DNA from: Candidatus Roizmanbacteria bacterium RIFCSPHIGHO2_02_FULL_37_13b
GTDB taxonomy: Bacteria; Patescibacteriota; Microgenomatia; UBA1406; HO2-37-13b
Assembly (NCBI GenBank): GCA_001789395.1
Contig: MFZK01000003.1
Location: 48,390 to 112,389 of the forward strand
Direction: 5' to 3'
Length of the DNA: 64,000 nucleotides
The notes under the pieces were generated by a model, which made no database searches, was not told the origin of the DNA, and saw only the letters and a program-made list of their open reading frames with translations. How positions within the stretch are numbered: the stretch's first letter is position 1; each line of letters begins with the position of its first letter. A program made the translations under genes and the position numbers. Below, one piece after another: positions 23,798 through 46,559 of the stretch.

Positions 23798-23803
23798 GAT
23801 ATT

Positions 23804-25704: not shown

Positions 25705-25743
25705 AGTTTATTTATTAAATTTACGTTTCGACTTTCGGTTTTT

Positions 25744-27525: not shown

Positions 27526-27535
27526 ATTATTCCAA

Positions 27536-27578
27536 TCAATCCCGGGATCGCAACAAAGCTAATTCTATCCCGGGATTA
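27536..27578. repeat. REP-like palindromic doublet (third copy of the repeat that flanks the RAYT gene)
   Basis: tcaatcccgggatcg-caacaaagctaat-tctatcccgggattac; ~90% identical to the doublets at 61222..61275 and 61955..62000. Confidence 0.6.
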
Positions 27579-29452: not shown

Positions 29453-29479
29453 ATGTTGTATTTATTCACGACTTAGAAG

Positions 29480-30550
29480 ATGCAGACTTTATTATATAAT
29501 ATCTTCATGAATTCTATTATCGGTCAGGATCTCGACTATATATTATCGACTGACATTCCCTGGACCAGACTTCGTAATAAAACGTTCCTCATCTCGGGGG
29601 CTGCGGGATTTATTGCATCTTATATTGTCAGGACTTTGGTCAAACTCAATGATCAAAAGCACTTAAATATTAAAGTCATTGGTATTGTTCGCAATAAACA
29701 AAAAGCAAAAATAAAATTAGCGGACATTATCAAAAGAGCTGATTTTAAATTAATTATTCATGACGTCTGCAAACCAATAATTATCAGAGAAAAAATTGAT
29801 ATTATAATTCACGCAGCCAGCTTAGCTAGTCCAAAATATTTTAATACCAATCCTGTTGAAACTCTAAATGCAAATATTTTTGGAACAAAAAATCTTCTTG
29901 AACTTGCAAAGGAAAAAAAATCCGATCATTTTCTTTTTTTAAGTAGCGGAGAAGTCTATGGAAAATTATCAAAAAAACAATTACCTACAAATGAAAAATC
30001 TTATGGATATATTGATCTTTTGGATGTCAGGTCTTGCTATGCAGAGAGCAAACGAATGGGTGAAGCAATGTCTATAGCGTGGAACCACCAATACAAAGTA
30101 CCAACGAAAATTGTCCGATTGTTTCATACGTATGGACCAGGAATTTCCCTAGATGATGGTCGTGTATTTGCTGATTTTGCAGCAAATATAATTAACAATC
30201 AAAATATAAATTTAAAAAGTACAGGTACGGCAATCAGATCTTTTTGTTATATTGCCGATTGCGTAACCGGAATATTTACAGTTTTATTTCAGGGTAAAAA
30301 CGGCGATGCTTATAACATTGCCAATGATAAAGGCAACACCAGCATTAAGAATTTAGCCAAATTATTGGTCGATATTTATCCTGAAAAAAAACTCAAAGTA
30401 ATTATAAAAAAAAGAAAAAAAAACGATCCATACTTACGAAGCCCAATCCAGATTAACGATCCGGACATATCGAAGATTAAGTCTCTTGGCTGGAAACCAA
30501 AATATCCACTTCAAACAGGATTTAAAAGAATGATTGATAGTTACCTTTGA
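29480..30550 (+). CDS. NAD-dependent epimerase/dehydratase (UDP-glucuronate decarboxylase/4-epimerase-like SDR)
   Basis: FLISGAAGFIASYIVRTL, YAESK catalytic motif. Confidence 0.7.
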   Translation: MQTLLYNIFMNSIIGQDLDYILSTDIPWTRLRNKTFLISGAAGFIASYIVRTLVKLNDQKHLNIKVIGIVRNKQKAKIKLADIIKRADFKLIIHDVCKPIIIREKIDIIIHAASLASPKYFNTNPVETLNANIFGTKNLLELAKEKKSDHFLFLSSGEVYGKLSKKQLPTNEKSYGYIDLLDVRSCYAESKRMGEAMSIAWNHQYKVPTKIVRLFHTYGPGISLDDGRVFADFAANIINNQNINLKSTGTAIRSFCYIADCVTGIFTVLFQGKNGDAYNIANDKGNTSIKNLAKLLVDIYPEKKLKVIIKKRKKNDPYLRSPIQINDPDISKIKSLGWKPKYPLQTGFKRMIDSYL

Positions 30551-30553
30551 AAA

Positions 30554-31471
30554 ATGAATAGAATAAACCGATTACAACGAACTTATAGAGAATATAGATC
30601 TGGCAGAATCACTAAATCCACTTATATTAAAAGAATGCATGATATCCATAAGATTCTTTTTGATTATTCAGATTTTATTAAAAAAACTGATATATCCAGC
30701 ATTGACATTAATACTTACGACGTAATAATGACATTAAATAAAACAGGATTGAAATTTCTTTGTGATAAAAATGATCATCGAATCGCACCAATTGAAATTA
30801 TCAACTTTAGTACATACGAAAATGAAGAAATGGCTGTCACTTTAAAGCTAATAAAGAAAAATTATACTATATTTGATATTGGCGCCAATATCGGTTGGTA
30901 TTCATTAACTCTGTCTCGCTTAAAAAAAAATATCCAAATCTATGCTTTTGAACCTATTTTGAGAACTTATAAATATTTAAACAGAAATATTGCGCTTAAT
31001 AATATTAAGAATATAAAAACAATGAATTTTGGTTTTTCAGATAAAAATAAAAAAATTAAATTTTATTATTATCCTGAAGGATCAGGAAATGCATCTGCTT
31101 TGAATATATCACATCACCCCAACGCTGAAAAAATAACAGGTCGGATTATGAAATTGGATGATTTTATTAATAAAGAAAATATAAAGATTGACCTTATTAA
31201 GTGCGATGTCGAAGGAGCTGAGCTCTTTGTCTTTAAGGGTGCCATAAACACCATCAAACAACAAAAACCGATTATTGCCACAGAGATGCTTCGAAAGTGG
31301 TCAAAACCTTTTAATTATCATCCGAATGATATTATTGAGTTGCTCGGTACAGTTGGATATAATTGCTACGTTGTCAGAAAAAAAAGATTAATTAACATGC
31401 CATATATCACCGATCATACGAAGGAAACAAATTTCTTTTTTTTACATCATCAAAAACATAAAAACATATGA
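30554..31471 (+). CDS. FkbM-family SAM-dependent methyltransferase
   Basis: IFDIGANIGWYSLTL and KCDVEGAE motifs, diagnostic of FkbM methyltransferases. Confidence 0.75.
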   Translation: MNRINRLQRTYREYRSGRITKSTYIKRMHDIHKILFDYSDFIKKTDISSIDINTYDVIMTLNKTGLKFLCDKNDHRIAPIEIINFSTYENEEMAVTLKLIKKNYTIFDIGANIGWYSLTLSRLKKNIQIYAFEPILRTYKYLNRNIALNNIKNIKTMNFGFSDKNKKIKFYYYPEGSGNASALNISHHPNAEKITGRIMKLDDFINKENIKIDLIKCDVEGAELFVFKGAINTIKQQKPIIATEMLRKWSKPFNYHPNDIIELLGTVGYNCYVVRKKRLINMPYITDHTKETNFFFLHHQKHKNI

Positions 31472-33258
31472 GAGTTGCCGATTATATTATTGATTTCATC
31501 TATAAGAAAGGCGCTTCGTACATTTTCACCCTGGCCGGTGGAGGAGCAATGTTTTTAAATGACGCTGTCTACTGTCATAAAAAAATCAAATATATCTGCA
31601 ATCACCATGAGCAGGCATCAGCTTTTGCCGCCGAGGCATATGCAAAAACAAATAATAAAATTGGGGCTGTCATGGTCACTTCAGGTCCCGGGAGCACCAA
31701 CGCCATTACCGGCCTTTTGGAAGCTTGGCAAAATTCGATTCCTTGCATATTTATATCCAGTCAGGCTAAACGTCAGCAGATGGTATACTTTTCTACCGTC
31801 AAAAACATCAGACAACTGGGGGTACAGGAACTTAATATTATCCCCATCGTCAAACCACTTACTAAATATGCGGCTGAGGTTGAGACTGTTGAAAGCATCC
31901 GATTTCATCTGGAAAAAGCCTTTTTTTTAGCTAAATCCGGCCGACCCGGACCTGTCTGGCTTGATATCCCACCTGATATTGCAACTGCGAAAGTCAAAGC
32001 TAATGAGCTAATCGGATTTAATAACAAAAAAACTTCGAACAAACCTTTAGCATCGTCTCATGATTTTGCTTCTGTATTAAACATGTTAAAAAAGTCACAA
32101 AAACCACTGATTATTGCAGGTGGTGGTATTCGACTTTCTGACTCAGTAGCGGAATTTAGAGAATTATTGCATTCGCTTAACGTCCCTGTCGTTGTCCCGG
32201 ATATGGGATTGGATTTACTTGAGTTTACTCACCCGTGTTATATCGGCACGGGTGGTACCAAAGGCCAGCGTGCTGCTAATATCGCGATGCAAAATGCGGA
32301 TTTGATCCTTGTGATTGGAAGCCGTCTGGCTATCCCATTTACCGGACATGAATATGACCGTTTTGCTCCTAATGCAAAAAAAATAGTAATTGACATTGAC
32401 AAAATTGAACACAAGAAAAAAACAATAAAAATTGACTTTTTTATTCATTCTGATGCCAAATATTTCATCGCCAATCTCAACAAAAAAGTAAAGAATATAA
32501 AATTCAAATTCAGGGATAATTGGCTAAAAAAATGTATTGCTTTAAAAAATAAATATACAGATCTTTTTCCAACATGGCAAAGTGAAAAAAATAAAATCAA
32601 TATGTATGAAGCGTTTAGCAAGATATCTGATTTTTCCAGTCAAGGTGATATCTTTACTTTTGATGCCGGTGTTACAGCATATGTCGCTACACAAACATTA
32701 AAAATTAAAAAAGATCAACGAGCGATAATACCGGGAGCAACATTAACCATGGGTTATAATCTACCGGCAATTATTGGCATTTGGGCAGCTACCCCAAAAT
32801 CAAACATTATTTGCATTACGGGTGATGGATCATTTCAGATGAATATCCATGAATTACAAACAATAGTACATCATAAAATTCCGGCAAAAATTTTTATTAT
32901 CAACAATCAAGGATATTTAGCAATCCGTACGACACAAAAAAATTTCTTTTCTGGCCGGCTTATCGGTGAAGGCATTAAATCAGGAGTATCTTTTCCCGAT
33001 ACGGAAAAAATTGCCAAAGCCTATGATATTAAGTTTTTTAAAATTAACAAGAATCAAGAATTAAATACCATTATTCCAAAAGTACTCCGGTATAAAGGTA
33101 CTGCCATATGTGAAATTATCTGCCCGACATGGCAAGACATTCTGACTACTTCTTCAAAACAACTACCAGATGGACGGATGGTTTCTTTGCCACTCGACGA
33201 AATGTCTCCTTTTTTACCTGAAGATGAAATGACTGAAATAAAAAATAGTTTATCCTAG
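31468..33258 (+). CDS. Thiamine-diphosphate-dependent enzyme, acetolactate-synthase-like (paralog of 25744..27525)
   Basis: VADYIIDFIYKKGASYIFTLAGGG...HEQASAFAAEAYA...TSGPGSTNAITG; ThDP motif GDGSFQMNIHEL...NNQGY. Confidence 0.75.
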   Translation: MRVADYIIDFIYKKGASYIFTLAGGGAMFLNDAVYCHKKIKYICNHHEQASAFAAEAYAKTNNKIGAVMVTSGPGSTNAITGLLEAWQNSIPCIFISSQAKRQQMVYFSTVKNIRQLGVQELNIIPIVKPLTKYAAEVETVESIRFHLEKAFFLAKSGRPGPVWLDIPPDIATAKVKANELIGFNNKKTSNKPLASSHDFASVLNMLKKSQKPLIIAGGGIRLSDSVAEFRELLHSLNVPVVVPDMGLDLLEFTHPCYIGTGGTKGQRAANIAMQNADLILVIGSRLAIPFTGHEYDRFAPNAKKIVIDIDKIEHKKKTIKIDFFIHSDAKYFIANLNKKVKNIKFKFRDNWLKKCIALKNKYTDLFPTWQSEKNKINMYEAFSKISDFSSQGDIFTFDAGVTAYVATQTLKIKKDQRAIIPGATLTMGYNLPAIIGIWAATPKSNIICITGDGSFQMNIHELQTIVHHKIPAKIFIINNQGYLAIRTTQKNFFSGRLIGEGIKSGVSFPDTEKIAKAYDIKFFKINKNQELNTIIPKVLRYKGTAICEIICPTWQDILTTSSKQLPDGRMVSLPLDEMSPFLPEDEMTEIKNSLS

Positions 33259-34034
33259 GACCAGATCTTCCACGGAGCTCTGCTTGAAAACCAAAGCTTA
33301 TTAAGACTTTCCACTTCTTTGTAAGTATCCATACAAAACCAAAAACCATTGTGTTTGAAGAGTGATAATTGTCTTTCCTTAACTAATCTAGCCAATGCTA
33401 AATGTTCGGTTTCTCGTGGCCGAAAATAATTAAAAACGCGTTTATCAAATACCATAAATCCACCATTTACCCAATCTGAAAGAACCGGCTTCTCAACAAA
33501 ATTTATCACGGCATCATGGCTGTCGACTTGTGATGAACCATATCTTGATCTGGGATGAACCCCTGTAATCGTGCCGATTCTTTTATTTCTCTTATGGAAT
33601 TTCAATAGATTATCTATATCCAGATCAATAACTCCATCTCCATAAGTCACCATAAAATACTTATCTCTCTTTGGAATATATTTCTGACATAATAATATAC
33701 GCTCTCCGGGTAAGGTCTTAAGTCCGGTATCGACAAAGGTGATTCGAAAATCATCGATTTCCATACGATCTTCCAAAAAATATTTTGTCTTATAATTTCT
33801 TGTGTTTAAAGAAAAGTTTGAAGTCAATGCTTTTTGATTGAGAAAATAACTCTTGATGAAATCACCTTTATATCCCAAGGCTAAAATAAACTCGTTGAAA
33901 CCATAATATGCATATATTTTCATAATATGCCAAATGATGGGTTTTCCACCGATAAAAACCATCGGCTTCGGTTTAAATTCGGTTTCTTCTTTAAGTCGGG
34001 TTCCTTCACCGCCGCAAAGAATTATTGTTTTCAT
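33255..34034 (-). CDS. rfbF: Glucose-1-phosphate cytidylyltransferase
   Basis: MKTIILCGGEGTRLKEETEFKPKPMVFIGGKPIIWHIMKIYAYYGFNEFILALGYKG closely matches the RfbF/DdhA N-terminus. Confidence 0.8.
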   Translation of the reverse strand: MKTIILCGGEGTRLKEETEFKPKPMVFIGGKPIIWHIMKIYAYYGFNEFILALGYKGDFIKSYFLNQKALTSNFSLNTRNYKTKYFLEDRMEIDDFRITFVDTGLKTLPGERILLCQKYIPKRDKYFMVTYGDGVIDLDIDNLLKFHKRNKRIGTITGVHPRSRYGSSQVDSHDAVINFVEKPVLSDWVNGGFMVFDKRVFNYFRPRETEHLALARLVKERQLSLFKHNGFWFCMDTYKEVESLNKLWFSSRAPWKIWS

Positions 34035-34084
34035 ATAAGTAATATCTTAAAGTATTATAATTAACTTATCAAAAAAAGCAATTT

Positions 34085-34960
34085 ATGAGTAATAAAACCA
34101 AAGCATTACTTGTATTATTTTTTGGAATAATTATCGGTGCGCCGTCGCCTGCATTGACTAAAATAGGTTTAAAAGAAATTCCTCCGTATACATTCACCTT
34201 TATCAGATTTATTATTTCATCTATTTTTATTATTCCATTTTTCTTAAAACAAAGAATTGTCTTAAATAAATCCTTAATAAAATTATTGTTATTTTCATTT
34301 TTACCGATCATAAATATTATTTTTTATGTTCAGGGTATAAAAATAACAACCGCCAATAGTACGATGCTAATTCAATCTGTCATACCAATCATTACGGCGA
34401 TTTTTTCATTCATTGTCATTAAGGAAAAAATTAGCAATATTAAATGGCTGGCAATATCTTTTGGTCTTCTTGGTACCTGGTATACAATCCTCCTGCCTGC
34501 GATCGAGACAAATTCCATCTCCGGTAACATGTACGGAAATATATTAATTCTCTTGGGAGCAATTGTCTATTGTCTTTATATGGTTTTGTTAAAAAAGGCA
34601 CAACGAACACATTCAATGATAACAATTGTTTCAATGATGATTTTTGCAGGTCTGTTAGTATTTTCTTTATTATCTTTAACTGAAAAATTTGATTATTCAT
34701 TAATGATGAACAACGTATCAAATCTGGCAAAATTATCATTATTTTACCTTGCATTGACCATAACTATTGGCAGTTATCTACTATCCCAGTATCGGATAAA
34801 ATTAGCAGGCCCTGTTGCAGCTTCATTGGATTTCTATTTGGGACCTCCGGTTGGATATTTATTTTCATATATCTTACTTGGTGAGATTTTAACTCCAGGC
34901 CTTTTAATTGGTACAATCCTTGTATTAACCAGCGTTGTTTTTGTTACATATAGTAAATGA
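34085..34960 (+). CDS. EamA/DMT-superfamily transporter
   Basis: 10 TM helices in two EamA repeats. Confidence 0.7.
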   Translation: MSNKTKALLVLFFGIIIGAPSPALTKIGLKEIPPYTFTFIRFIISSIFIIPFFLKQRIVLNKSLIKLLLFSFLPIINIIFYVQGIKITTANSTMLIQSVIPIITAIFSFIVIKEKISNIKWLAISFGLLGTWYTILLPAIETNSISGNMYGNILILLGAIVYCLYMVLLKKAQRTHSMITIVSMMIFAGLLVFSLLSLTEKFDYSLMMNNVSNLAKLSLFYLALTITIGSYLLSQYRIKLAGPVAASLDFYLGPPVGYLFSYILLGEILTPGLLIGTILVLTSVVFVTYSK

Positions 34961-34966
34961 CTAACT

Positions 34967-35833
34967 ATGTTTAATCCATCATCTATCGCGATCGCTCTGA
35001 TTACGTATTACCCAAAGTGGTATCGCGGAAAACTTCGCAGCCTTGGGGCTACCGATAAAATACGCGGTGATTTAGCATTGAGGACGGTTGAACAAGGCGT
35101 CAAAAAAGGTTATCAAATAATAATTGTTGATGGTACCAGTTCCAGGAGTTTCAAGACAGATCTCCGACGTTTCTCATCAGTTCATTTGATCAAAAGACGC
35201 ATCAATAAAGCTTCTCCAGCCAAGAGACAAGCGATAAAGCGAGCAGCCAGTATAGATGGAGTGAAAGCAATTGTTTTAATGGAACCGGAAAAAACTGATT
35301 TGATAGAGAATCATATCGAAATGATAGTCAAACCAATATTGAAAAATTATGCCGACATTGTTATACCGTGTAGAAATGATGACTTTTTTCGAAAAACTTA
35401 TCCTGACTATATGTATAAGTCAGAAGTCGAAGGAAACTTTATGTATAACCAAATATTAAAGTCGACCAATTTTCTTCAAAAAAAAGCGAGTGATTTTGAT
35501 TTTTTCTTTGGTCCCCGGGCATTTAAAAATGAAAGGGGAGTGGTAAAGCTATTTCTAAAAAAGGCAAAATTAAAAATTAATAATGAGATTATAAATAAAT
35601 TAATCATTGATCCGGAAATATATTCTAATAGCCTGTATTACTCGGTAATTCAAGCTCTGAAGAAGAAATTAAAGGTACTCAGCATAGAAATTCCATTTAA
35701 ATATCCAACCATTCAAAAAGAAAATGAAGAAAAAGGAGACCGAGATTTTTTTATGGAAAAACGTAATAATCAACAACTTCGACTGATAGTGGAACTTCTG
35801 TGTTTTATGAATCGAGAGTATAAACAAGTTTGA
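34967..35833 (+). CDS. Hypothetical protein, possibly a nucleotide-diphospho-sugar transferase-like fold
   Basis: SIAIALITYYP...IIIVDGTS resembles a GT-A N-terminus, but no clear DxD motif; soluble. Confidence 0.4.
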   Translation: MFNPSSIAIALITYYPKWYRGKLRSLGATDKIRGDLALRTVEQGVKKGYQIIIVDGTSSRSFKTDLRRFSSVHLIKRRINKASPAKRQAIKRAASIDGVKAIVLMEPEKTDLIENHIEMIVKPILKNYADIVIPCRNDDFFRKTYPDYMYKSEVEGNFMYNQILKSTNFLQKKASDFDFFFGPRAFKNERGVVKLFLKKAKLKINNEIINKLIIDPEIYSNSLYYSVIQALKKKLKVLSIEIPFKYPTIQKENEEKGDRDFFMEKRNNQQLRLIVELLCFMNREYKQV

Positions 35834-37128: not shown

Positions 37129-38145
37129 TTAGACTAATTTATTTTCCTCAGGATTCATCAATAATTCAGCGATTGCTTTTGAGAGAGGTTGTTTTGTCAG
37201 ATTTTCGATCCATAAATATTGACCATTGGGATTCAATTCAAAAAAAACGTACTTTCCCTCAGGCGTTACAGCCATATCGATGGTACCAAATTGCAGGTGG
37301 TAATGACGTAGTAAATCCAAACAACCTTTCTCAATTTCTATGGGCAATATGTAAACTGAATGTTTTATATTCTCCGGTATTTCTCTTCTCCAATCTGTCT
37401 TACCAAGCTTAGTTGATTGTGAATCAAGTGCTGTTGCAAAAACTTTTTTCCCGATTATAGTTATCCGTAATTCAATTTTCTTCTCAATCTCTTCTTGTAA
37501 AAAAAGCGGATAATCAATAGGCTTTAATTTATGATAGTTAACAAATTTGTTTTTTGTGATCGGTATTGTAAAAAATAAACGTGAATATTTTCCATATCTA
37601 ATCTGAGACGTTACGATATTTTTTATAACCGCTTTACCATCGTGATTGCTAATAAATGATAATAAACTATCATAGTCAGCCGAAATTAATGTCTCCGGTA
37701 TTGAAAATCCAAGTTTATTTGCTGTATTTAGTTGATCAAGCTTATTTGAAGATAGCATTAATAAATCAATACTGTTAATGATAAAAATGCCTTTTTTTTG
37801 CGCCTCATTCATAATTCCTCTTGAAAACATTGCAATAATTTCGTTTCTTTTGTACATTATCGACATCATCTTATCAGGATCATGATCGTGTTGGTCTTCA
37901 CTTTCTAACCAAAGATGAGGTTTTCTAAACCATAGGCCTGAAAAATCATTTAAAGTATATTTTTTTACTCGTAAGACAAAGGTTAAAGGCTCATTTTCTT
38001 TGGGATTATATTCCACATACTGATTTTTTCCAAACATATTTGCATACAATGCAATTGAATTTTTTCCATTTTTATTAAGAATCTCGAGAACTCGATCTAT
38101 ATGAGGATCTGGATATGATGTAAGTATAAGAATGGATTTTTTCAT
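37129..38145 (-). CDS. Microviridin-type (graspetide) ATP-grasp macrocyclase, MdnC/MvdD family
   Basis: C-terminal block IELRITIIGKKVFATALDSQ...KTDWRRE...FGTIDMAVTPEGKYVFFELNPNGQYLWIE...LSKAIAELL closely parallels the MdnC signature (LELRITIVG...IDWRKE...GAIDMIVTPD.RYIFLEINPVGEFFWLE...ISQAIAEIL). The N-terminal MKKSILILTSYPDPHIDRV pre-ATP-grasp leader-binding domain is present. Start chosen at internal Met (alternative 38196). Confidence 0.7.
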   Translation of the reverse strand: MKKSILILTSYPDPHIDRVLEILNKNGKNSIALYANMFGKNQYVEYNPKENEPLTFVLRVKKYTLNDFSGLWFRKPHLWLESEDQHDHDPDKMMSIMYKRNEIIAMFSRGIMNEAQKKGIFIINSIDLLMLSSNKLDQLNTANKLGFSIPETLISADYDSLLSFISNHDGKAVIKNIVTSQIRYGKYSRLFFTIPITKNKFVNYHKLKPIDYPLFLQEEIEKKIELRITIIGKKVFATALDSQSTKLGKTDWRREIPENIKHSVYILPIEIEKGCLDLLRHYHLQFGTIDMAVTPEGKYVFFELNPNGQYLWIENLTKQPLSKAIAELLMNPEENKLV

Positions 38146-38183
38146 TAAGTCATTATTTAGAAAATAACAGGTGTTAAAAAAAA

Positions 38184-38588
38184 TCAAGGATCCCATGCGA
38201 CATCTTGACCTCCATCATCATGAGTTTCATCACCACCGTTATTATGTGTGTGGATTATTGTATCTGGTTTCGGTTTATAAGTCCAATCACCGTTTTCTGC
38301 TGTGTTTGAATATACAACTTTGTCTGCGTTTTGAAATATGATAGGCGCTACACTCATCGTAGTCGCTGAAGTTGGTTCTAATAGTTTGGCTGAAGCCGCC
38401 GAATCGGTAGTTGTATAAGGCGCAACAAAAGACGGATTACAATCAGATCGCACTGAATCAGTGCCTATCAATGGCGCTGAATCAATTACCATTCCATCGA
38501 CTAAAAGTAGCGATTCACCACCTACCCGTGTGGCTTGCCCAGCGACTCGTGGAGGAGTTTTTGTCTCAATCTCGACTGGTGGTGTCAT
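38184..38588 (-). CDS. Candidate graspetide precursor peptide (134 aa from the first ATG, or 57 aa from the internal Met at 38357)
   Basis: Immediately upstream of and co-directional with the ATP-grasp gene. No TM helix. C-terminal region rich in Thr/Lys/Asp/Glu (TAENGDWTYKPKPDTIIHTHNNGGDETHDDGGQDVAWDP), suitable for omega-ester/amide cross-links. Preceded by a consensus promoter. Confidence 0.4.
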   Translation of the reverse strand: MTPPVEIETKTPPRVAGQATRVGGESLLLVDGMVIDSAPLIGTDSVRSDCNPSFVAPYTTTDSAASAKLLEPTSATTMSVAPIIFQNADKVVYSNTAENGDWTYKPKPDTIIHTHNNGGDETHDDGGQDVAWDP

Positions 38589-38597
38589 ATTTAGCCT

Positions 38598-38626
38598 ATT
38601 GTAATACTCTTAATATCTCTTGTCAA
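38598..38626 (-). promoter_or_regulatory. Sigma70-like promoter for the precursor/ATP-grasp operon
   Basis: On the minus strand: TTGACA (38621-38626), a 17-nt spacer, TACAAT (38598-38603), and ~9 nt to the ATG at 38588. Confidence 0.45.
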
Positions 38627-38656
38627 TTCTTCCTATTCTATTATATGATATCGATA

Positions 38657-39625
38657 ATGAAAAAAATAATCATTATCACCGGACAAACTGCTACCGGAAA
38701 AACCTCTCTTGCGTTACAACTGGCAAAAGAAAAAAATGGTGAGCTAGTCAATTTTGACTCCAGACAAATGTATAAATATCTCACTATTATTACGGGAAAA
38801 GACATCAAGAAAAATTCGAAATTCAAAAGTCAAAAGTCAAAATTACAGCTTGAAAGTAAAAATTCATACGATATTGGATATTATAAAATTAACGGTATAA
38901 ATGTTTGGCTGTATGATGCGGTCGATCCAAAGCAAAATTTTTCGTCCTTTGATTTCAAAGAGTTGGCAGAAGTCGTCATTGAGGATATTCAAAAAAGAAA
39001 CAAAATTCCAATTCTCATCGGTGGAACTTATTTATATTTAAAACATTTGCTGTATGGTTTTGAAACTGAAAATATTCCACCCAATTGGCCATTAAGAAAA
39101 AAATTAAATAAAAAATCCCTCAAAGAATTGCAGAAACTGCTTAAGTCAATAAATTACCAAATGTTTCAACATTTAAATAATTCTGACAAAAACAATCCTC
39201 AAAGATTAATAAGAAAAATCGAAATCGCAACCAACCTAAATTTACCAGCAGTGCAAAAAAAATCACTTAAACCGAAGGTTCAGCCACTAACTAACCCCAC
39301 GGGTTATGTAGCTTTGAATCTTCGGATATATACCGGACTCAGATTTGCCAGCAATGACAAATTAAAGGTGGTCATTAAAAAGAGAGTATTAAAAAGATTG
39401 CAGCTTGGTGCCATCGATGAGGTTAAATCACTTCTAGATAAGGGATATAAAAAAACTGATCCCGGAATGAAAACCATCGGCTATCAACAAATTATCGAAT
39501 ATTTAGAAAAAAAAATCAGTAAGGAGAACGCGGTTAAAAAATGGATCACAGCTGAAATTCAATATGCAAAAAGACAATATACGTTTATGAAGAAAGATGA
39601 GAATATTGTTTGGAGATTGGTATAA
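38657..39625 (+). CDS. miaA: tRNA dimethylallyltransferase
   Basis: MKKIIIITGQTATGKTSLALQLAKE...VNFDSRQMYKYLTIITGK (P-loop, DSRQ motif). The start was reassigned from 38411 to the Met preceding the P-loop. Confidence 0.8.
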   Translation: MKKIIIITGQTATGKTSLALQLAKEKNGELVNFDSRQMYKYLTIITGKDIKKNSKFKSQKSKLQLESKNSYDIGYYKINGINVWLYDAVDPKQNFSSFDFKELAEVVIEDIQKRNKIPILIGGTYLYLKHLLYGFETENIPPNWPLRKKLNKKSLKELQKLLKSINYQMFQHLNNSDKNNPQRLIRKIEIATNLNLPAVQKKSLKPKVQPLTNPTGYVALNLRIYTGLRFASNDKLKVVIKKRVLKRLQLGAIDEVKSLLDKGYKKTDPGMKTIGYQQIIEYLEKKISKENAVKKWITAEIQYAKRQYTFMKKDENIVWRLV

Positions 39626-39739: not shown

Positions 39740-39803
39740 CGTGGAGTGGGAATAAACTGTTACACGTTTCACGTAACGCGTTACACGTATCACATTACAC
39801 AAA

Positions 39804-40781
39804 TCAGGTTTTTTTAAGACGCTTTAAATCTACATCAACCATCATTTTTATCAATTCTTTGAAACCCACCTTTGGTTGCCATCCAAGTATTTTTTTTGCC
39901 TTATCCGCTTTGCCTTTAAGCTCAAATACTTCAGCAGGTCGAAGGTATCTCGGGTCTATCTTGACGTACTGATTGAAATTCGTCATACCAGCTGCTTTAA
40001 ATGCTTCTTCGACAAATTCCCGAACGGTATGATTTTCACCTGTAGCAGCGACATAATCATCTGGTTTATCACTTTGTAACATCAAATACATCGCCTCAAC
40101 ATAATCACCCGCAAAACCCCAATCTCGCTTGGAATCGAGGTTACCGAGCCTTAACTCTTTAGTTAGTCCCAACTTAATTCTGGCAACTCCATCAGTGATT
40201 TTCCTGGTGACAAATTGAATACCCCTTAGAGGCGACTCGTGATTAAATAAAATTCCATTAGACGTAAAAATATTATATGACTCTCTAAAATTTATCGTCA
40301 TCCAATATGCATATAGCTTTGAAATTGCATAAGGACTTCTTGGTTTAAATGCGGTGTTTTCATCTTGATAGCCATTATCATTATTCAAACCAAACATCTC
40401 CGATGTTGAAGCCTGATAAAATTTTGTTAAGGGGCAAAAAAACTTAACTGAATTCAATAAATACAAAACTCCCAGCGAATTTATTTCTGTTGTCAGTTTA
40501 GCCTGATCCCAGGATGAACCGACAAACGACTGAGCTGCCAAATTGTAGATTTCCTGAGGTCTGATCGATTTTATTATATTCATCAACGATCCCTCATCCG
40601 TCATATCTCCTTCTACGTATTGAACTTGATTTGTTATTCCAAGATAATCAAGATTCTCGAAGCTCGGATTTGAATAACGGCGAATCAATCCATAAACCTC
40701 GTAGTCTTTTTCCAAAAGCAATTTGGCTAAATACGGGCCGTCTTGACCCAATATTCCGGTTATAAAAGCAACTTTTTTCAT
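39804..40781 (-). CDS. gmd: GDP-mannose 4,6-dehydratase
   Basis: MKKVAFITGILGQDGPYLAKLLLEKDYEVYGLIRR is the canonical Gmd N-terminus; ~325 aa. Confidence 0.85.
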   Translation of the reverse strand: MKKVAFITGILGQDGPYLAKLLLEKDYEVYGLIRRYSNPSFENLDYLGITNQVQYVEGDMTDEGSLMNIIKSIRPQEIYNLAAQSFVGSSWDQAKLTTEINSLGVLYLLNSVKFFCPLTKFYQASTSEMFGLNNDNGYQDENTAFKPRSPYAISKLYAYWMTINFRESYNIFTSNGILFNHESPLRGIQFVTRKITDGVARIKLGLTKELRLGNLDSKRDWGFAGDYVEAMYLMLQSDKPDDYVAATGENHTVREFVEEAFKAAGMTNFNQYVKIDPRYLRPAEVFELKGKADKAKKILGWQPKVGFKELIKMMVDVDLKRLKKT

Positions 40782-40847
40782 TAATTAAAACTATATCAAA
40801 TTAACTCCCTTTCTGCAAGACTAGAAAAAACTGGTAAAATAATAAAA

Positions 40848-42122
40848 ATGAAACGACTCATTCATTTGGTCAAATTACCTACGACAAAAGAAGTTATTGT
40901 TAACACTTTTGGTAATTATCTTAATGTCTTATTTACGGCTTTCTACGCCCTAATGCTTGTCCGCATCATGACTCCGGCCCAGTATGGAGTATTAAGTGTT
41001 TTGTTTGCGATTACATATCTTTTAGCCAATGTACTTGACTTTGGCGTATCAGCTTCAATCTATTCTTATTTACCGCCTATCTTGCACAATCGAGAAGAAA
41101 CAAATAAATTCATCAAAGCTAATTTTGTCTTTCAAACCGTGTTGGCCGCGATAGTCATCCTGATAACTTTTGTCTTTATTAAACCAATCGACAACACAAT
41201 TTTAAAACTTCATGTCCCAATGTCATCATTTTTTTGGACTTTTATCTCAATTCCTTTATTCATTTGGCAAAACTTCACGTTAAATATTTTTTTTGCCGCT
41301 AGAAAATTTTTAGCAGCTAATATTGCTTTAAATATAGCCAACGTGCTAAAAACTGGAATCCTTTTGTATTTTATCTGGCAAAAGCAAGCATCTATTAATG
41401 CAATAATTATTACCTTGGGCGTAATTGGTCCTCTGTTATTTCTTGGTCTTTTGGCCTATGATCGACAAACTGATGTCTTAAAAATTCTGCAAACATCTTT
41501 CCACCGAAGTAGCATAAGACTAAAGTATACCTTGACCTTCTTTGTCTCATCACAATTTTTTAATATGGCCTCTCGTATCGATCTATTTATGCTTTCTTTT
41601 TACCTACCAAAAGCAGATGTCGGTTATTATGGCCTTTCACAAAAAATAATTTTAACTATACTGACATCAGTAAATAGTATCACCCAAGTTTTATCACCAC
41701 AATTTGCCAAGGCAGTCACCAAAAAAGAAGTAATCAGTCATATGAAAAAAGCATTATTGTATATGTCGATACCAACAGCACTTTTTTTTATAGCGGCAAT
41801 ATTACCGACATGGATCTATACTCTTGTTTTTACTTCAAATTATCAGAAAACCGCCATGATTACCCGGATCTTGTCTAGCTCATATATTCTTTATGGTATT
41901 TCCGCAATACCTTCACTCTTTTTTCTTTATACTGTCAGAAAACCAATCTATCTTTGTATAAATAACCTTGTATTTTTAATAATAATTGCATTTGGATCTT
42001 ATTGGTTGATTCCTCATTTTGGCGTTTTTGGACCAACGATCGCCTTTTTTGGTTGTTTTATCTGGTCAACACTTTATCTGTATTTATACTATTTCCTGGA
42101 GATAAAAAAAATGAAGCAGTAG
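40848..42122 (+). CDS. Wzx-like oligosaccharide flippase (MOP/polysaccharide biosynthesis protein family)
   Basis: 424 aa, 12-14 TM helices; membrane topology typical of PST-family flippases. Confidence 0.65.
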   Translation: MKRLIHLVKLPTTKEVIVNTFGNYLNVLFTAFYALMLVRIMTPAQYGVLSVLFAITYLLANVLDFGVSASIYSYLPPILHNREETNKFIKANFVFQTVLAAIVILITFVFIKPIDNTILKLHVPMSSFFWTFISIPLFIWQNFTLNIFFAARKFLAANIALNIANVLKTGILLYFIWQKQASINAIIITLGVIGPLLFLGLLAYDRQTDVLKILQTSFHRSSIRLKYTLTFFVSSQFFNMASRIDLFMLSFYLPKADVGYYGLSQKIILTILTSVNSITQVLSPQFAKAVTKKEVISHMKKALLYMSIPTALFFIAAILPTWIYTLVFTSNYQKTAMITRILSSSYILYGISAIPSLFFLYTVRKPIYLCINNLVFLIIIAFGSYWLIPHFGVFGPTIAFFGCFIWSTLYLYLYYFLEIKKMKQ

Positions 42123-42124
42123 TC

Positions 42125-43594
42125 ATGTTTAAAAAATACACTCCGATTATTCTAATTTTACTTTTAGCACTAATGCTTAGAGTCATTGCTTTAAATCAAT
42201 CATTTTGGCTCGATGAAACAATTCAGGCCACTGTATCGAATAGCAACTCATCATCAATAAATTGGAGCAATGACTTTCAACCACCGTTATTTTATTTATT
42301 CAGTCACTTGTGGCAACAAATTGGAATAAATTATGAATGGTTTTTGCGGCTACCATCTGTCATTTTTGGTATTTTAACAGTATTTATACTCTATTTGTTG
42401 ATCAAGGATATCGCGGGAAAACATACTGCTATTTTATCCGCGCTTTTTTTGGCAACTGCACCATTTCACATTTATTACTCACAGGAATATCGAATGTATT
42501 CATTCTTCACTTTATTGGTAGCGCTATCATGGTATCTGCTTTATAAGCGAAAATTATTATCATATTTTCTTACTCTAGTACTTTTATCTTACACTCATTA
42601 TTTTACCACTTTGGTAATTATTTCTCAAATTATTTATGTAATTCTTGCGAGACAAATTACGATTAAACGATTAATTGTAGTATTTGTGGCTACTTTTTTT
42701 TTCTTTATTCCTTGGTTACCGACGTTATTTAAACAAATCCAGACTGCATCAAATCTCATTTCCATTTGGCCAAAATGGCAACAAGTTGCAGGCGTCACGT
42801 TCCTCAAATTCCCATTTTTACTTCTGGCTAAATTTACGGTTGGGATGATCAGTCCAACGAATAAATATATCTATGGAGTTTTTGTATTGTTCATGGCAAT
42901 AATATTTTTTTTGTATGGGTTTAAATTGATATATCAATATATTCAACCTCGAAGGTTACGGATGTTATTAGCAGAACCTAAAGTAAGTATTTTATTAATC
43001 CCGTTTGTAATACCTCTAATTTTGGCTTGGATTTCTTCGGTTTGGATTTCAGCTAGTTCACCGCATCGCTTATTATTTACGCTTCCTTTTTTTTACGGAA
43101 TTCTCGCGGTTGGATTTTTTCAAGAGAACAAAAATGTTTTTTTAAATATTTTTAAGCAAAAAAAGTTAAAAATGATATTTATAAGTATTCTGGTATTATG
43201 TAATTTGGTGTTTTCATTTTTATATTTATTAAATCCTAAGAATCACCGTGAAGCCTGGCGTGAAGCCATTGCATATACCGACAACAAAATCGGAGATAGG
43301 GGAGTGGCACTATCAGAATTCATCGACCCGTGGGCACCGATGATCTGGTATTCCAAATATCCAGAAAAATATCTCGGAGCTTCAAATTCAATGAAGGTAA
43401 CCAATGAATCAATTCAAACCAAACTAGATTCCCGTATACAAAATACTCAAAACCTCATACTCTATACTTATTTATACGAACTTTCAGATCCCAATCGTTT
43501 GGTAGAAAAATATTTAGCGACAAATGGTTTTAAACTCACTGAAGAAAAAGACTTTAGAGGAGTGGGAATAATAAAAATATATAAGAATGATTAA
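42125..43594 (+). CDS. GT-C fold membrane glycosyltransferase (GT39/GT83 PMT/ArnT-like)
   Basis: Start reassigned to MFKKYTPIILILLLAL (42125). First luminal loop ALNQSFWLDETIQA (the R/W-DE motif of the ArnT/PMT family); many TM helices plus a C-terminal soluble domain. Confidence 0.6.
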   Translation: MFKKYTPIILILLLALMLRVIALNQSFWLDETIQATVSNSNSSSINWSNDFQPPLFYLFSHLWQQIGINYEWFLRLPSVIFGILTVFILYLLIKDIAGKHTAILSALFLATAPFHIYYSQEYRMYSFFTLLVALSWYLLYKRKLLSYFLTLVLLSYTHYFTTLVIISQIIYVILARQITIKRLIVVFVATFFFFIPWLPTLFKQIQTASNLISIWPKWQQVAGVTFLKFPFLLLAKFTVGMISPTNKYIYGVFVLFMAIIFFLYGFKLIYQYIQPRRLRMLLAEPKVSILLIPFVIPLILAWISSVWISASSPHRLLFTLPFFYGILAVGFFQENKNVFLNIFKQKKLKMIFISILVLCNLVFSFLYLLNPKNHREAWREAIAYTDNKIGDRGVALSEFIDPWAPMIWYSKYPEKYLGASNSMKVTNESIQTKLDSRIQNTQNLILYTYLYELSDPNRLVEKYLATNGFKLTEEKDFRGVGIIKIYKND

Positions 43595-43615
43595 TTACAC
43601 GTAGCAAGTTGTGGA

Positions 43616-45878: not shown

Positions 45879-46559
45879 TTGACAATTGTTTATATACTTG
45901 ATATACTACCGGTTATAATGATTGTAAAAAAAGCTGCTGTTAACAAAAACTACTCCTTATTTAATATTAAAATTGCTTTGTCGCCGATTCTTTTGCTTGT
46001 CGCTTTATACTTAATTCTTCAAACCTTTAGCATTGCATCGGCTACTGATGCTAATAACTTTCCGACGCCAACCAATTTTTGTCCTGATGATATTTGTGAT
46101 GTTACACCGCCTTCATGTGACGATCTAAATCCTTCATGCGGAGCTGCTACGCCAACGATTCGAATCACATCTGGTGAAATCGCTACACCAACTTTAAGTA
46201 CAACAAAATCACCAACAACCAGACCGACAAGTACACCTTCAGAAGAAATCATTCCTACCAAAGAATTGACAATTACACCATCAAACGGTGGCGGTGGTGG
46301 AATCGTATCACCGACTCCAACAAGTACACCGACACAAACACCAAGTCCAACCTCAGTTTCATCATCAAGCGGATCATCATCAAGTGGTGGTGCTTCTTCG
46401 ACTTCGTCAAGTTCACCATCAAGTAGTGGCGGTGGAGGAGAGGTCTTAGGATTAGCTGAGACTGGATCTTTTGTTGAATCTATTTCGAGCGCTTTTTTTA
46501 TGCTCTCGATATCTTTTTTTGGTCTATCAATTCTTTCTCATGCCAAAAAGAAAAAATAA
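45879..46559 (+). CDS. Sortase substrate: Thr/Pro/Ser-rich (mucin-like) surface protein with a C-terminal LAETG sorting signal
   Basis: N-terminal signal/TM; low-complexity TPT/SSS repeats and Gly runs; C-terminus ...LGLAETGSFVESISSAFFMLSISFFGLSILSHAKKKK (LAETG, hydrophobic span, KKKK tail). Confidence 0.6.
   Translation: MTIVYILDILPVIMIVKKAAVNKNYSLFNIKIALSPILLLVALYLILQTFSIASATDANNFPTPTNFCPDDICDVTPPSCDDLNPSCGAATPTIRITSGEIATPTLSTTKSPTTRPTSTPSEEIIPTKELTITPSNGGGGGIVSPTPTSTPTQTPSPTSVSSSSGSSSSGGASSTSSSSPSSSGGGGEVLGLAETGSFVESISSAFFMLSISFFGLSILSHAKKKK

What the first reader, a model, noticed from the sequence alone, without database searches (positions are those of the whole stretch)
37129..38656. 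Graspetide (microviridin-type RiPP) locus: MdnC-like ATP-grasp macrocyclase plus a candidate precursor ORF
The 37129..38145 product carries the C-terminal signature of the microviridin/graspetide ATP-grasp ligases, ELRITIIG...DWRRE...GTIDMAVTPEGKYVFFELNPNGQYLWIE...KAIAELL. This closely parallels my recollection of MdnC (ELRITIVG...DWRKE...GAIDMIVTPDERYIFLEINPVGEFFWLE...QAIAEIL). It also has the N-terminal leader-binding pre-domain.

Immediately upstream and co-directional is a non-membrane ORF (38184..38588). Its C-terminal 40 aa are rich in Thr, Lys, Asp and Glu (TAENGDWTYKPKPDTIIHTHNNGGDETHDDGGQDVAWDP). That is the donor/acceptor chemistry of omega-ester and omega-amide macrolactone/lactam rings. 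Its core does not match the microviridin TxKYPSDWEEY motif, so it may belong to an uncharacterised graspetide group.

The pair is driven by a near-consensus TTGACA-17-TACAAT promoter. It sits between surface-glycan genes and miaA, in an organism class not known for RiPPs. Only one ligase is present and there is no GNAT or ABC exporter.
Basis: partly seen in the sequence, partly recalled or inferred. Interest (0 to 1): 0.75.

Follow-up and report, generated by a model that had tools for sequence, protein, structure and literature searches.

The report
Two-gene graspetide cassette in a CPR bacterium
A tiny groundwater bacterium (Candidatus Roizmanbacteria) carries a minimal two-gene kit, a peptide and an ATP-dependent enzyme predicted to staple that peptide into rings; the kind of locus was already predicted for these bacteria in 2022, so this is a good new example, not a new kind.

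Summary
37129-38145(-) encodes a 338-aa ATP-grasp enzyme. It matches graspetide maturase models over its full length (MvdD 2.4e-54, RimK 1e-8). Its closest solved sequences and folds are CdnC, MdnC, AMdnB, PruB and PsnB.

The 134-aa ORF at 38184-38588(-) is a real gene and the likely substrate. Every near relative of the ligase whose flanking DNA I could read has a small co-directional ORF next to it, in unrelated genomic contexts. These ORFs end in Thr-rich then Asp-rich sequence. The window ORF carries TxxxTx(6-10)Dx(1-4)D at aa 110-129; it is the only one of 367 small ORFs in the window with this signature near its C-terminus.

That signature, and the Woesebacteria relative (41% identical ligase), belong to "Branch 1" of CPR graspetide loci described by Makarova et al. 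2022. The claim that this organism class is not known for RiPPs is therefore outdated.

This locus is not in that paper's supplementary files. No CPR graspetide characterisation turned up in the searched library.

Local features: a long leader conserved only in the closest relative, a hypervariable core, a probably leaderless transcript from a conserved promoter, and no protease, exporter or second ligase found.

Verdict: new member of a known kind.

The parts
38598..38626 (-). Sigma-70-type promoter TTGACA-17-TACAAT for the precursor-ligase operon. The -10 hexamer ends 9 nt before the ATG, which implies a leaderless or nearly leaderless mRNA.
   Evidence: 11 of 12 matches, best site in the region; the homologous locus L001 has TTGAAA-17-TACAAT followed by 9 nt and the ATG, the same geometry, although the ORFs share only about 33% amino-acid identity.
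38184..38588 (-). Precursor peptide gene (134 aa plus stop; GenBank OGK21893.1, annotated hypothetical protein A3C23_00915).
   Evidence: Syntenic homologue in L001/L091, BLASTP E=1e-5 over aa 1-92. No RNA family match and RNA folding z-score 0.09. GC 44% against 31% for the ligase, as in L001 (43% against 34%).
38334..38345 (-). P82-I-I-F85, the candidate leader recognition motif (Pro, two hydrophobic residues, then an aromatic).
   Evidence: PIIFQ (window), PIVFQ (L002), PIQFY (L011) and PVFGA (L001) each lie 28-32 residues upstream of the TxxxT motif. Compare the Phhx(1,2)h leader signature of PMC8939145. The strict published regex is not matched.
38202..38261 (-). Core signature T110-IIH-T114-HNNGGDETH-D124-DGGQ-D129 (followed by VAWDP and the stop). 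These are the predicted ring-forming Thr and Asp residues.
   Evidence: The same TxxxT-x(6-10)-DxxxxD layout is found in L001, L002, L011, L013 and the published Gottesmanbacteria cluster 3058.
38146..38183 (-). 38-nt spacer between the precursor stop codon and the ligase ATG; no terminator-like site.
37129..38145 (-). Graspetide ATP-grasp macrocyclase (338 aa plus stop; OGK21892.1, A3C23_00910) with an N-terminal pre-ATP-grasp domain.
   Evidence: The start at 38145 (MKKSILILTS) rather than 38196 is chosen by alignment to homologues.
37924..37926 (-). R74 (in WFRKP). By position it is the equivalent of PsnB Arg72, a core-binding residue conserved in graspetide ligases.
   Evidence: Invariant in alignments A2 and A3. 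Its role is taken from 10.1101/2021.03.09.434688. The mapping is by motif and position and is an inference.
37459..37473 (-). E225-L-R227-I-T229. R227 is probably the equivalent of PsnB Arg213, which holds the ring-forming carboxylate next to ATP.
   Evidence: R227 and T229 are invariant in A3. The motif aligns with ELRITVVG of CdnC and ELRITIVG of MdnC. Role (inference).
37387..37395 (-). D251-W-R253, the D(F/W)R loop typical of graspetide ATP-grasp enzymes.
   Evidence: Described as conserved and essential in PsnB.
37222..37245 (-). FFELNPNG (aa 301-308). E303 and N305, together with D290, correspond to the Mg-ATP ligands that I take from general knowledge of ATP-grasp enzymes.
   Evidence: D290, E303 and N305 are invariant in A3.

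Best explanation
This is a minimal two-gene graspetide (omega-ester RiPP) biosynthetic cassette of the CPR "Branch 1" type, in Candidatus Roizmanbacteria.

- **Transcription (inferred).** One promoter (38626..38598) drives a probably leaderless mRNA that encodes the 134-aa precursor and, 38 nt later, the single ATP-grasp macrocyclase.
- **Recognition and chemistry (inferred by homology to MdnC, CdnC and PsnB).** The enzyme's N-terminal pre-ATP-grasp domain binds the leader, most likely around P82-I-I-F85. The ATP-grasp active site then phosphorylates side-chain carboxylates of the C-terminal core. R227 and the D251-W-R253 loop position the carboxylate and ATP. D290, E303 and N305 bind Mg-ATP. 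Thr hydroxyls attack the acyl-phosphates and form side-chain-to-side-chain ester rings.
- **Ring pattern (inferred, lower confidence).** The core T110-xxx-T114-x9-D124-xxxx-D129 has a GG turn near the middle of its loop. This suggests a beta-hairpin stapled by two nested esters, T114-D124 and T110-D129. Each ester costs 18 Da.
- **Maturation and role (not shown).** No dedicated protease, exporter or tailoring gene was found beside the pair. Leader removal and release, if they happen, must use general cell functions. By analogy with characterised graspetides, the likeliest activity is protease inhibition.

Shown here: the enzyme family and fold, intact catalytic motifs, a conserved precursor-ligase pairing across unrelated contexts, the core signature, and the conserved promoter geometry.
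For: **Ligase family**
- NCBIfam MvdD 2.4e-54 (residues 6-330 of 338), SAV_5884-type 7e-48 and MvdC 9e-44, against RimK 1.2e-8.
- PDB sequence hits: CdnC 1e-36 and MdnC 4e-35.
- AlphaFold model with pLDDT 93.6. Its 32 best PDB matches are all graspetide macrocyclases, TM 0.65-0.79.

**Catalytic and graspetide-specific residues**
- R74, R227, D251-W-R, D290, E303 and N305 are all present and conserved.
- Their roles come from the PsnB work and from general ATP-grasp knowledge.

**Precursor pairing**
- An adjacent co-directional small ORF with a Thr/Ser-rich then Asp/Glu-rich C-terminus sits next to nearly every related ligase whose flanks could be read and scanned, in different neighbourhoods. 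No such ORF turned up by my ATG-ORF scan next to L014, L079, L100, L110, L116 or L123.
- Examples: L001/L091 132 aa, L002 95 aa, L011 67 aa, L013 68 aa, L171 57 aa, L098 53 aa, L005 and L006 60 aa, plus many Patescibacteria loci.
- L001 keeps the same miaA / precursor / ligase / SIMPL order. Its flanking genes are 54-64% identical and its ligase 54%, but the precursor is only about 34% identical, and only in the leader. That is the RiPP pattern of a conserved leader and a variable core.

**Core signature**
- Present at aa 110-129 and in all five closest precursors.
- Unique among 367 small ORFs of the window.
- Occurs in the last 30 aa of 2.4% of shuffles of the ORF.

**Link to the published class**
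- The Woesebacteria relative (P0004 = KKR30824.1) and its 95-aa ORF (KKR30825.1) are listed as a Branch 1 ligase and precursor cluster 6490 in PMC8939145.
- The window ligase groups with it in a neighbour-joining tree.

**Operon**
- The promoter geometry is conserved in L001, and no terminator-like site was found.
Against: - No chemistry has been observed: no product, no mass loss, no expression data.
- The precursor has no detectable homologue beyond L001/L091. This holds in a 5.8-billion-protein word search and in an exhaustive phmmer of 1.84 billion representatives, apart from a doubtful repeat-protein hit.
- The strict published leader regex Phhx(1,2)h is not matched. Several Pro-hydrophobic sites exist (PSFV, PLIG, PIIF), so the recognition site is not pinned down.
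- The core signature is short and degenerate: 11% of shuffles of the last 40 residues contain it.
- The ring pairing is an analogy, not a result.
- The ligase scores far below the curated equivalog cut-offs (184.7 against 475 bits), so it is a divergent family member.
- With no protease or exporter found in the genes annotated nearby, the end product and its destination are unknown.
Confidence: 0.85

Rival explanations
1. The ligase is a genuine graspetide macrocyclase, but the 134-aa ORF is not its substrate. The real precursor would be a small unannotated ORF elsewhere in the genome, and the upstream ORF an unrelated fast-evolving protein.
For: The ORF is long for a RiPP precursor and has an orphan sequence. 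The strict leader regex is not matched. PMC8939145 notes that some CPR ligase loci have no identifiable adjacent precursor.
Against: The small-ORF and ligase pairing recurs in different genomic contexts. The core signature is shared with all near relatives and is unique within the 64-kb window. The spacing from the leader-like motif to the core is constant at 28-32 aa. Long predicted precursors exist in the same branch: 95 aa in Woesebacteria and 145 aa in Gottesmanbacteria.
Confidence: 0.07
2. The G+C-rich stretch 38184-38600 is not protein-coding. It would be a structured non-coding RNA or a chance ORF.
For: GC rises to 0.44-0.47 against about 0.31-0.34 around it. In A+T-rich genomes that often marks RNA genes. 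A near-consensus promoter sits right at its 5' end.
Against: No Rfam match at E<=1. The folding energy equals that of shuffles, z=0.09. The ORF, its start codon and its N-terminal residues (MTPPVE against MTPSVE) are conserved in L001 at protein level, E=1e-5. The high GC follows from a Thr/Ala/Pro/Val/Ser/Gly-rich composition.
Confidence: 0.02
3. The ATP-grasp enzyme works like RimK, LysX or ArgX. It would add amino acids to a protein or carrier C-terminus, here the acidic ...DVAWDP tail, instead of forming rings.
For: RimK, LysX and ArgX are the next-best structural relatives. Some database sources label relatives of this ligase as RimK-type. The ORF ends in an acidic tail.
Against: Graspetide models win by more than 45 orders of magnitude. 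The N-terminal pre-ATP-grasp domain, the DWR loop and the R74/R227 pair are graspetide features. All 32 top structural hits are macrocyclases.
Confidence: 0.03
4. The cassette is an inactive evolutionary remnant in a reduced genome.
For: No protease, exporter or immunity gene was found nearby. The core differs completely from that of the closest relative.
Against: Both ORFs are intact. All catalytic residues are conserved. The promoter is near-consensus and conserved. The pair is retained in at least two diverged Roizmanbacteria-like genomes at the same site.
Confidence: 0.03

Closest known systems
CPR 'Branch 1' graspetide loci of Makarova et al. 2022 (Biol Direct 17:7, PMC8939145), e.g. Candidatus Woesebacteria GW2011_GWA1_39_8 ligase KKR30824.1 with precursor KKR30825.1 (cluster 6490)
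   Same: The ligase is 41% identical (E=6.5e-73) and groups with it in the tree. The precursor lies immediately upstream and co-directional. The core signature TxxxTx(6-10)Dx(1-4)D is shared. Long predicted precursors (95-145 aa) occur in the same branch. The host group is the same (CPR, Microgenomates).
   Different: This locus (OGK21892.1 and OGK21893.1) is not in that paper's supplementary files. Its precursor sequence is unrelated to any of the published precursor clusters I read (1029, 1472, 1865, 1874, 2658, 2710, 3058, 5505, 6190, 6490). No homologue of the accessory proteins seen in related loci (M29 peptidase, DUF6624-like protein, which may correspond to the published cluster 23) was found in the window, and the scanned neighbours gave no TPR hit. 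The strict Phhx(1,2)h leader motif is not matched.
Microviridin system (MdnA with MdnB/MdnC, or MvdC/MvdD); MdnC structure 5ig9
   Same: Same enzyme family and fold: about 29% identity, TM about 0.8, shared ELRIT, DWR and xIDM...E-x-NP motifs. A leader-guided ATP-grasp forms side-chain rings on a ribosomal peptide.
   Different: There is one ligase, not two. No GNAT or ABC transporter was found. The core lacks TxKxPSDx(D/E)(D/E). The leader lacks PFFARFL. The precursor is about three times longer.
Chryseoviridin ligase CdnC (7mgv)
   Same: It is the best solved-structure match by sequence (E=1e-36, full length) and by fold (E=2e-27, 30% identity).
   Different: CdnC acts on microviridin-like cores in Bacteroidota (my own knowledge). 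The window core is of a different type.
Plesiocin (PsnA/PsnB, group 2, TTxxxxEE) and thuringinin (group 3): hairpin-like bicyclic omega-ester peptides
   Same: A single ligase acts on two Thr and two acidic residues around a turn. This is the model for the nested two-ester hairpin proposed here. The R72, R213 and D(F/W)R features of PsnB are present.
   Different: The ligase is only 14-16% identical to PsnB. Spacing differs (TxxxT...DxxxxD with a 6-10-residue loop). There is one core copy, not three or four repeats. The acceptors are Asp, not Glu.

Membership tests
Graspetides (omega-ester/omega-amide RiPPs made by ATP-grasp macrocyclases) | ATP-grasp ligase of the MdnB/MdnC (MvdC/MvdD) family, including the N-terminal pre-ATP-grasp domain | tested here: met
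   NCBIfam MvdD 2.4e-54 over residues 6-330, against RimK 1e-8. PDB hits CdnC, MdnC, MdnB, AMdnB and PruB. Model pLDDT 93.6, and the top 32 fold hits are all graspetide ligases. The Pfam PF21068 hit alone is below threshold.
Graspetides (omega-ester/omega-amide RiPPs made by ATP-grasp macrocyclases) | Intact ATP/Mg and carboxylate-handling residues (conserved Arg pair, D(F/W)R loop, Asp/Glu/Asn metal ligands) | tested here: met
   R74, R227, D251-W-R253, D290, E303 and N305 are present and invariant or nearly so in 19 homologues. Roles of the Arg pair and the D(F/W)R loop are; the role of the metal ligands is from general ATP-grasp knowledge.
Graspetides (omega-ester/omega-amide RiPPs made by ATP-grasp macrocyclases) | Gene-encoded precursor next to the ligase, with a leader and a C-terminal core rich in Thr/Ser(/Lys) donors and Asp/Glu acceptors | tested here: met
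   The 134-aa ORF lies 38 nt upstream on the same strand. Its last 40 residues hold 7 Asp, 2 Glu, 5 Thr and 2 Lys. The pairing is conserved across relatives.
Graspetides (omega-ester/omega-amide RiPPs made by ATP-grasp macrocyclases) | Side-chain ester or amide macrocycles actually present in the product | not testable with these tools
   This needs co-expression and mass spectrometry.
CPR 'Branch 1' graspetide loci (PMC8939145) | Ligase belongs to the Branch 1 clade of the ATP-grasp tree | tested here: met
   It groups with the Branch 1 member KKR30824.1 (= P0004/L002) and other Microgenomates ligases in a neighbour-joining tree of 35 sequences, with 41% identity. No bootstrap was run and the full published tree was not rebuilt.
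CPR 'Branch 1' graspetide loci (PMC8939145) | Core signature TxxxTx(6-10)Dx(1-4)D | tested here: met
   aa 110-129, TIIHTHNNGGDETHDDGGQD. It is the only ORF of 367 in the window with this signature near the C-terminus.
CPR 'Branch 1' graspetide loci (PMC8939145) | Leader motif Phhx(1,2)h, typically within the first 30 residues | tested here: inconclusive
   The strict regex finds no match. P82-I-I-F85 (Pro, two hydrophobics, an aromatic) is the nearest fit. It lies at a conserved 28-32-aa distance from the core in four relatives, but not in the first 30 residues.
CPR 'Branch 1' graspetide loci (PMC8939145) | Frequent accessory genes (cluster 23 protein, TPR protein, metallopeptidase) | tested here: not met
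   The Pfam-scanned neighbours are glycan-synthesis, NUDIX, SIMPL, miaA and EamA genes. There is no tblastn match to the M29 peptidase or to DUF6624-like or membrane proteins from related loci. I did not have the published cluster 23 or TPR sequences themselves. These genes are frequent in the branch, not defining.
Microviridins (graspetide group 1) | Core motif TxKxPSDx(D/E)(D/E) and leader PFFARFL | tested here: not met
   Neither string occurs in the 134-aa ORF.
Microviridins (graspetide group 1) | Two ATP-grasp ligases (ester and amide) with a GNAT acetyltransferase and an ABC transporter | tested here: not met
   One ligase only. No GNAT or ABC gene among the genes annotated from about 23.8 to 50.3 kb.
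RimK / LysX / glutathione-synthetase-type ATP-grasp enzymes | Best match to those family models | tested here: not met
   RimK 1.2e-8, glutathione synthetase 8e-5 to 1e-2 and LysX 9e-3, against 2.4e-54 for MvdD. In the fold search they rank 33rd and lower.

The most novel reading that the evidence does not exclude
The Roizmanbacteria pair may be a distinct sub-type of CPR graspetide. Its marks would be an unusually long (about 95-aa), lineage-conserved, probably disordered leader, a double-ester beta-hairpin core that is replaced wholesale between close relatives, and expression from a leaderless transcript with no dedicated protease or exporter. In this reading the modified protein itself, not a short cleaved peptide, is the functional product. 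It could, for example, inhibit a host or competitor protease in the episymbiotic lifestyle. If so, it would be a first experimentally tractable CPR natural product, since I found none characterised in the searched library.
Probability: 0.2. Interest if true: 0.6.

Novelty: new member of a known kind. Interest (0 to 1): 0.35.

Why it matters
CPR bacteria have tiny genomes, are mostly uncultured and are thought to live on other cells. Almost nothing is known about the molecules they use on their hosts or rivals. Graspetide cassettes are among the few specialised-metabolite loci they carry. Such loci have been predicted (Makarova 2022; RODEO groups 27 and 42 in Carter 2026), but I found no experimental characterisation in the searched library.

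This locus is a clean test case. It has only two genes, an intact enzyme, a clear candidate substrate with named ring-forming residues, and a natural comparison partner (L001) with the same leader but a different core. Expressing the pair in E. coli could give a first structure of a CPR RiPP. It could also show how far one ligase tolerates core replacement.

For genome annotation, two "hypothetical proteins" (A3C23_00910 and A3C23_00915) can be renamed.

Tried and rejected
1. **Non-coding RNA in the G+C-rich stretch.** Rfam found nothing relevant at E<=1. ARAGORN found no tmRNA or tRNA there. The folding z-score was 0.09. Rejected.
2. **Word-index protein search with the 134-aa ORF.** It found only itself. 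Homologues were found through synteny instead.
3. **Exhaustive phmmer against 1.84 billion representatives.** It found itself plus P0023, a 1096-aa DUF7507/DUF11 repeat surface protein, at E=1.2e-8.
   - The score is summed over five near-identical repeats. The best single BLASTP segment is 34 bits. By my estimate that is expected by chance many times at this database size.
   - Pfam DUF11 and DUF7507 models do not hit the ORF. I treat this as probably not meaningful.
4. **Ligase-linker-precursor fusion for AlphaFold**, intended to dock the leader.
5. **AlphaFold of the precursor alone.** pLDDT was 32. This is uninformative beyond saying there is no confident globular fold.
6. **Accessory genes seen in related loci** (M29 peptidase, DUF6624-like protein, 190-aa membrane protein). 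None is present in the window.
7. **Locus accessions in the supplements of PMC8939145 and PMC13097080.** Absent from both.
8. **The 57-aa alternative start (M78).** Rejected as the main form, because the N-terminal 92 residues are the part conserved with L001.
9. **The longer ligase start at 38196 (355 aa).** Rejected, because homologues align from MKKSILIL.
Full report
**What is there**

The window comes from Candidatus Roizmanbacteria bacterium RIFCSPHIGHO2_02_FULL_37. This is a CPR (Microgenomates) genome from groundwater. The two proteins are in GenBank as hypothetical proteins A3C23_00910 (OGK21892.1) and A3C23_00915 (OGK21893.1).

On the minus strand, in order:
- a TTGACA-17-TACAAT promoter at 38626..38598;
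- a 134-aa ORF at 38588..38184;
- a 38-nt spacer;
- a 338-aa ORF at 38145..37129.

The stop codon of the 338-aa ORF abuts the stop of a convergent SIMPL/DUF541 gene. The divergent upstream gene is miaA, whose real start is at 38660.

**The enzyme**

- *Family models.* The 338-aa protein matches the graspetide maturase models over its full length: MvdD 2.4e-54 (residues 6-330), SAV_5884-type 7e-48, MvdC 9e-44 and grasp-with-spasm 3e-30. RimK scores 1.2e-8 and the glutathione synthetases 1e-4 to 1e-2.
- *Solved structures.* By sequence it hits only graspetide ligases: CdnC 1e-36, MdnC 4e-35, MdnB, AMdnB and PruB.
- *Fold.* An AlphaFold model built from 19 homologues has pLDDT 93.6. Its 32 best PDB matches are all graspetide macrocyclases. 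ArgX, RimK and LysX follow only after them.
- *Catalytic residues.* The PsnB work identified an Arg pair and a D(F/W)R loop as conserved and essential in graspetide ligases (10.1101/2021.03.09.434688). These are present and conserved here as R74, R227 in ELRIT, and D251-W-R253. The metal ligands D290, E303 and N305, whose role I take from general ATP-grasp knowledge, are also present. The enzyme looks active.
- *Divergence.* It scores well below the curated equivalog cut-offs, so it is a divergent member of the family.

**Is the 134-aa ORF a gene, and is it the substrate?**

Its G+C content (44% against 31% for the ligase) made me test an RNA gene first. There is no Rfam match, and the predicted folding energy is no better than that of shuffles (z=0.09).

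A word-index search of 5.8 billion proteins found only the ORF itself. Synteny was more informative.
- The closest ligase relative (54% identical; L001 and L091, groundwater metagenomes) sits in the same miaA / small ORF / ligase / SIMPL arrangement.
- Its 132-aa ORF begins MTPSVE...PP.V, against MTPPVE...PP.V here. It aligns over residues 1-92 (34% identity, E=1e-5 for the single comparison). The C-terminal parts are unrelated.
- Flanking genes are 54-64% identical. The precursor therefore evolves faster than its neighbours, and its core has been replaced. That is the usual RiPP pattern.

More distant ligase relatives sit in quite different neighbourhoods. Almost all of those with readable flanks have a small co-directional ORF beside the ligase that ends in Thr/Ser-rich then Asp/Glu-rich sequence. 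Six (L014, L079, L100, L110, L116, L123) showed no such ORF by my ATG-ORF scan.
- Woesebacteria, 95 aa: ...TSLYTPKGGSYDIQTTDPD
- Roizmanbacteria 38_11, 67 aa: ...TTLWTGPGQTCDGTTTDSD
- Roizmanbacteria 37_12, 68 aa: ...TETFTPPDNDFDDSNPDP
- L171, 57 aa, and L098, 53 aa
- many Patescibacteria, Dehalococcoidia and other loci with classical 36-80-aa precursors

**Link to the literature**

Makarova et al. 2022 (PMC8939145) described two CPR branches of graspetide ATP-grasp enzymes. For Branch 1 they gave the leader motif Phhx(1,2)h and the core signature TxxxTx(6-10)Dx(1-4)D.
- Their Branch 1 list contains the Woesebacteria GW2011_GWA1_39_8 ligase. Their precursor cluster 6490 is exactly the 95-aa ORF I recovered next to P0004.
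- The window ligase is 41% identical to that enzyme. In a neighbour-joining tree it groups with it, L001, L171, L011, L013 and L098.
- The window ORF carries the signature at residues 110-129: T-IIH-T-HNNGGDETH-D-DGGQ-D. So do the four other near relatives and the published 145-aa Gottesmanbacteria precursor, and all six have a Dx4D spacing.
- Within the 64-kb window it is the only one of 367 six-frame ORFs of 30-200 aa with the signature in its last 35 residues.
- The motif is short. It appears in the last 30 residues of 2.4% of whole-ORF shuffles and in 11% of shuffles of the last 40 residues. Its weight comes from recurring at the same place in every relative.

Carter et al. 2026 (PMC13097080) also describe RODEO groups 27 and 42 as including many examples from uncharacterised candidate bacterial phyla. 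The window's accessions are absent from the supplements of both papers. My searches of the paper library turned up no experimental work on a CPR graspetide.

**Mechanism**

Homology supports leader-guided, ATP-dependent activation of core Asp or Glu side chains as acyl-phosphates, followed by attack from Thr hydroxyls to give ester rings. Two details are my own inferences.

1. *Recognition element.* It is most likely P82-I-I-F85. PIIFQ, PIVFQ, PIQFY and PVFGA lie 28-32 residues before TxxxT in four precursors of very different total length. The strict published regex is not matched, and PSFV (conserved with L001) is an alternative, so this point stays open.
2. *Ring pattern.* Turn-forming residues sit at or near the centre of the loop between the second Thr and the first Asp:
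   - window: HNN-GG-DETH
   - L001: ETVV-GG-YVRA
   - L002: PK-GG-SY
   - L013: PP-DN-DF

   This points to a beta-hairpin with two nested esters, T114-D124 and T110-D129 here, as in plesiocin- and thuringinin-type bicycles. It is a prediction only.

**Expression**

- The -10 hexamer ends 9 nt before the ATG, so the mRNA should be leaderless or nearly so.
- L001 has TTGAAA-17-TACAAT, then 9 nt, then the ATG, with almost the same spacer (gggctatat against aggctaaat).
- No terminator-like site lies between or after the genes, and the gap is 38 nt. The two genes are very probably one transcript.

**What is missing**

Pfam scans of the genes from about 23.8 to 50.3 kb show a large surface-glycan cluster, a NUDIX gene, SIMPL, miaA, EamA transporters and a LexA-like S24 peptidase. 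A few ORFs (45879-46559, 47125-47943, 48990-50330) gave no Pfam match, and 46471-47097 was not scanned. No second ligase, GNAT, ABC or C39 transporter was found. There is also no M29 peptidase, DUF6624-like protein or membrane protein of the kinds seen next to related ligases. How the leader is removed, whether it is removed at all, and where the product goes are unknown.

**Verdict**

The remark that the organism class is not known for RiPPs is out of date. The core fits an already published, though uncharacterised, CPR signature. The locus is a new, unlisted member of a known, bioinformatically defined kind.

It has some attractive local features: a long conserved leader, wholesale core replacement between relatives, a leaderless transcript and a minimal gene content. 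I score interest at 0.35. This is solid, useful for annotation and a good experimental entry point, but it would not surprise a specialist.

Noticed in passing
window 38598-38660: The precursor promoter (minus strand, -35 at 38626-38621) and a promoter-like site for the divergent miaA (plus strand, TTGTCA at 38620-38625, 18 nt, TATGAT ending at 38649) have overlapping -35 hexamers. Each -10 ends 9-10 nt before its ATG (38588 and 38660), which suggests two back-to-back leaderless transcripts. L001 shows the same layout, with a TATGAT-like box just upstream of its miaA start (read by eye).
   Followed up: partly
window, e.g. 55208(-), 40781(-), 40848(+), 44748(+), 47125(+), 48990(+): Several ORFs of at least 150 aa have a -10-like hexamer ending 6-12 nt before the ATG. 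The gene starting at 55208 even has the same 'aggctaaat' spacer as the precursor. Only 7 of 53 long ORFs have a Shine-Dalgarno-like 4-mer upstream. Leaderless or SD-independent initiation may be common in this genome. The counts are too small to show enrichment.
   Followed up: partly
window 38196-38408 (precursor aa 61-130) against P0023: Exhaustive phmmer found a 1096-aa DUF7507/DUF11 repeat surface protein at E=1.2e-8, about 39-42% identity to one repeat. The score is summed over five near-identical repeats, the best single segment is 34 bits, and Pfam DUF11 models do not hit the ORF. It is probably compositional, but a remote origin of the precursor from an Ig-like repeat is not excluded.
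   Followed up: partly
window 38411-39625 (+): The 404-aa TTG-start ORF is an artefactual 5' extension of miaA that runs antisense through the precursor gene. The IPP-transferase match and the P-loop begin at the ATG at 38660.
   Followed up: yes
window about 23800-35800 and 39800-43600: A large surface-glycan gene cluster. It includes two TPP-dependent enzymes (25744-27525 and 31468-33258), several NDP-sugar epimerases and dehydratases, an FkbM methyltransferase, GT2 glycosyltransferases, a GDP-mannose 4,6-dehydratase, a flippase and a PMT_2-type transferase. The graspetide pair, NUDIX, SIMPL and miaA sit between the two halves.
   Followed up: no
L024 859-1458; L009 2325-2820; L016 2479-2979; L103 2123-2485; L121 2028-2501: Related ligases elsewhere have multiple or multi-core precursors. 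An Ignavibacteria MAG has three tandem 61-65-aa precursors ending ...DATSDESSDR-like. L009 and L010 have two different precursors. L016, L103 and L121 have 120-166-aa precursors with repeated T...(E/D)DD modules.
   Followed up: no
L025, L030, L032, L037 (about 3990-4110): A conserved 36-37-aa precursor family lies immediately downstream of the ligase in four Patescibacteria/Saccharibacteria MAGs (MK.AETFA..C.VES......SWT.G...GSD.DD). It is followed by a conserved protein of about 170 aa; that protein was not itself scanned, but it resembles the DUF6624 protein next to the L007 ligase. This protein may be the 'cluster 23' partner of PMC8939145.
   Followed up: no
L014 (CAZLQR010000015.1): A MAG labelled uncultured Gammaproteobacteria carries a ligase that groups inside the CPR/Microgenomates clade (37% identity). 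No convincing adjacent precursor was found by ATG-ORF scanning. The cause could be mis-binning or horizontal transfer.
   Followed up: no
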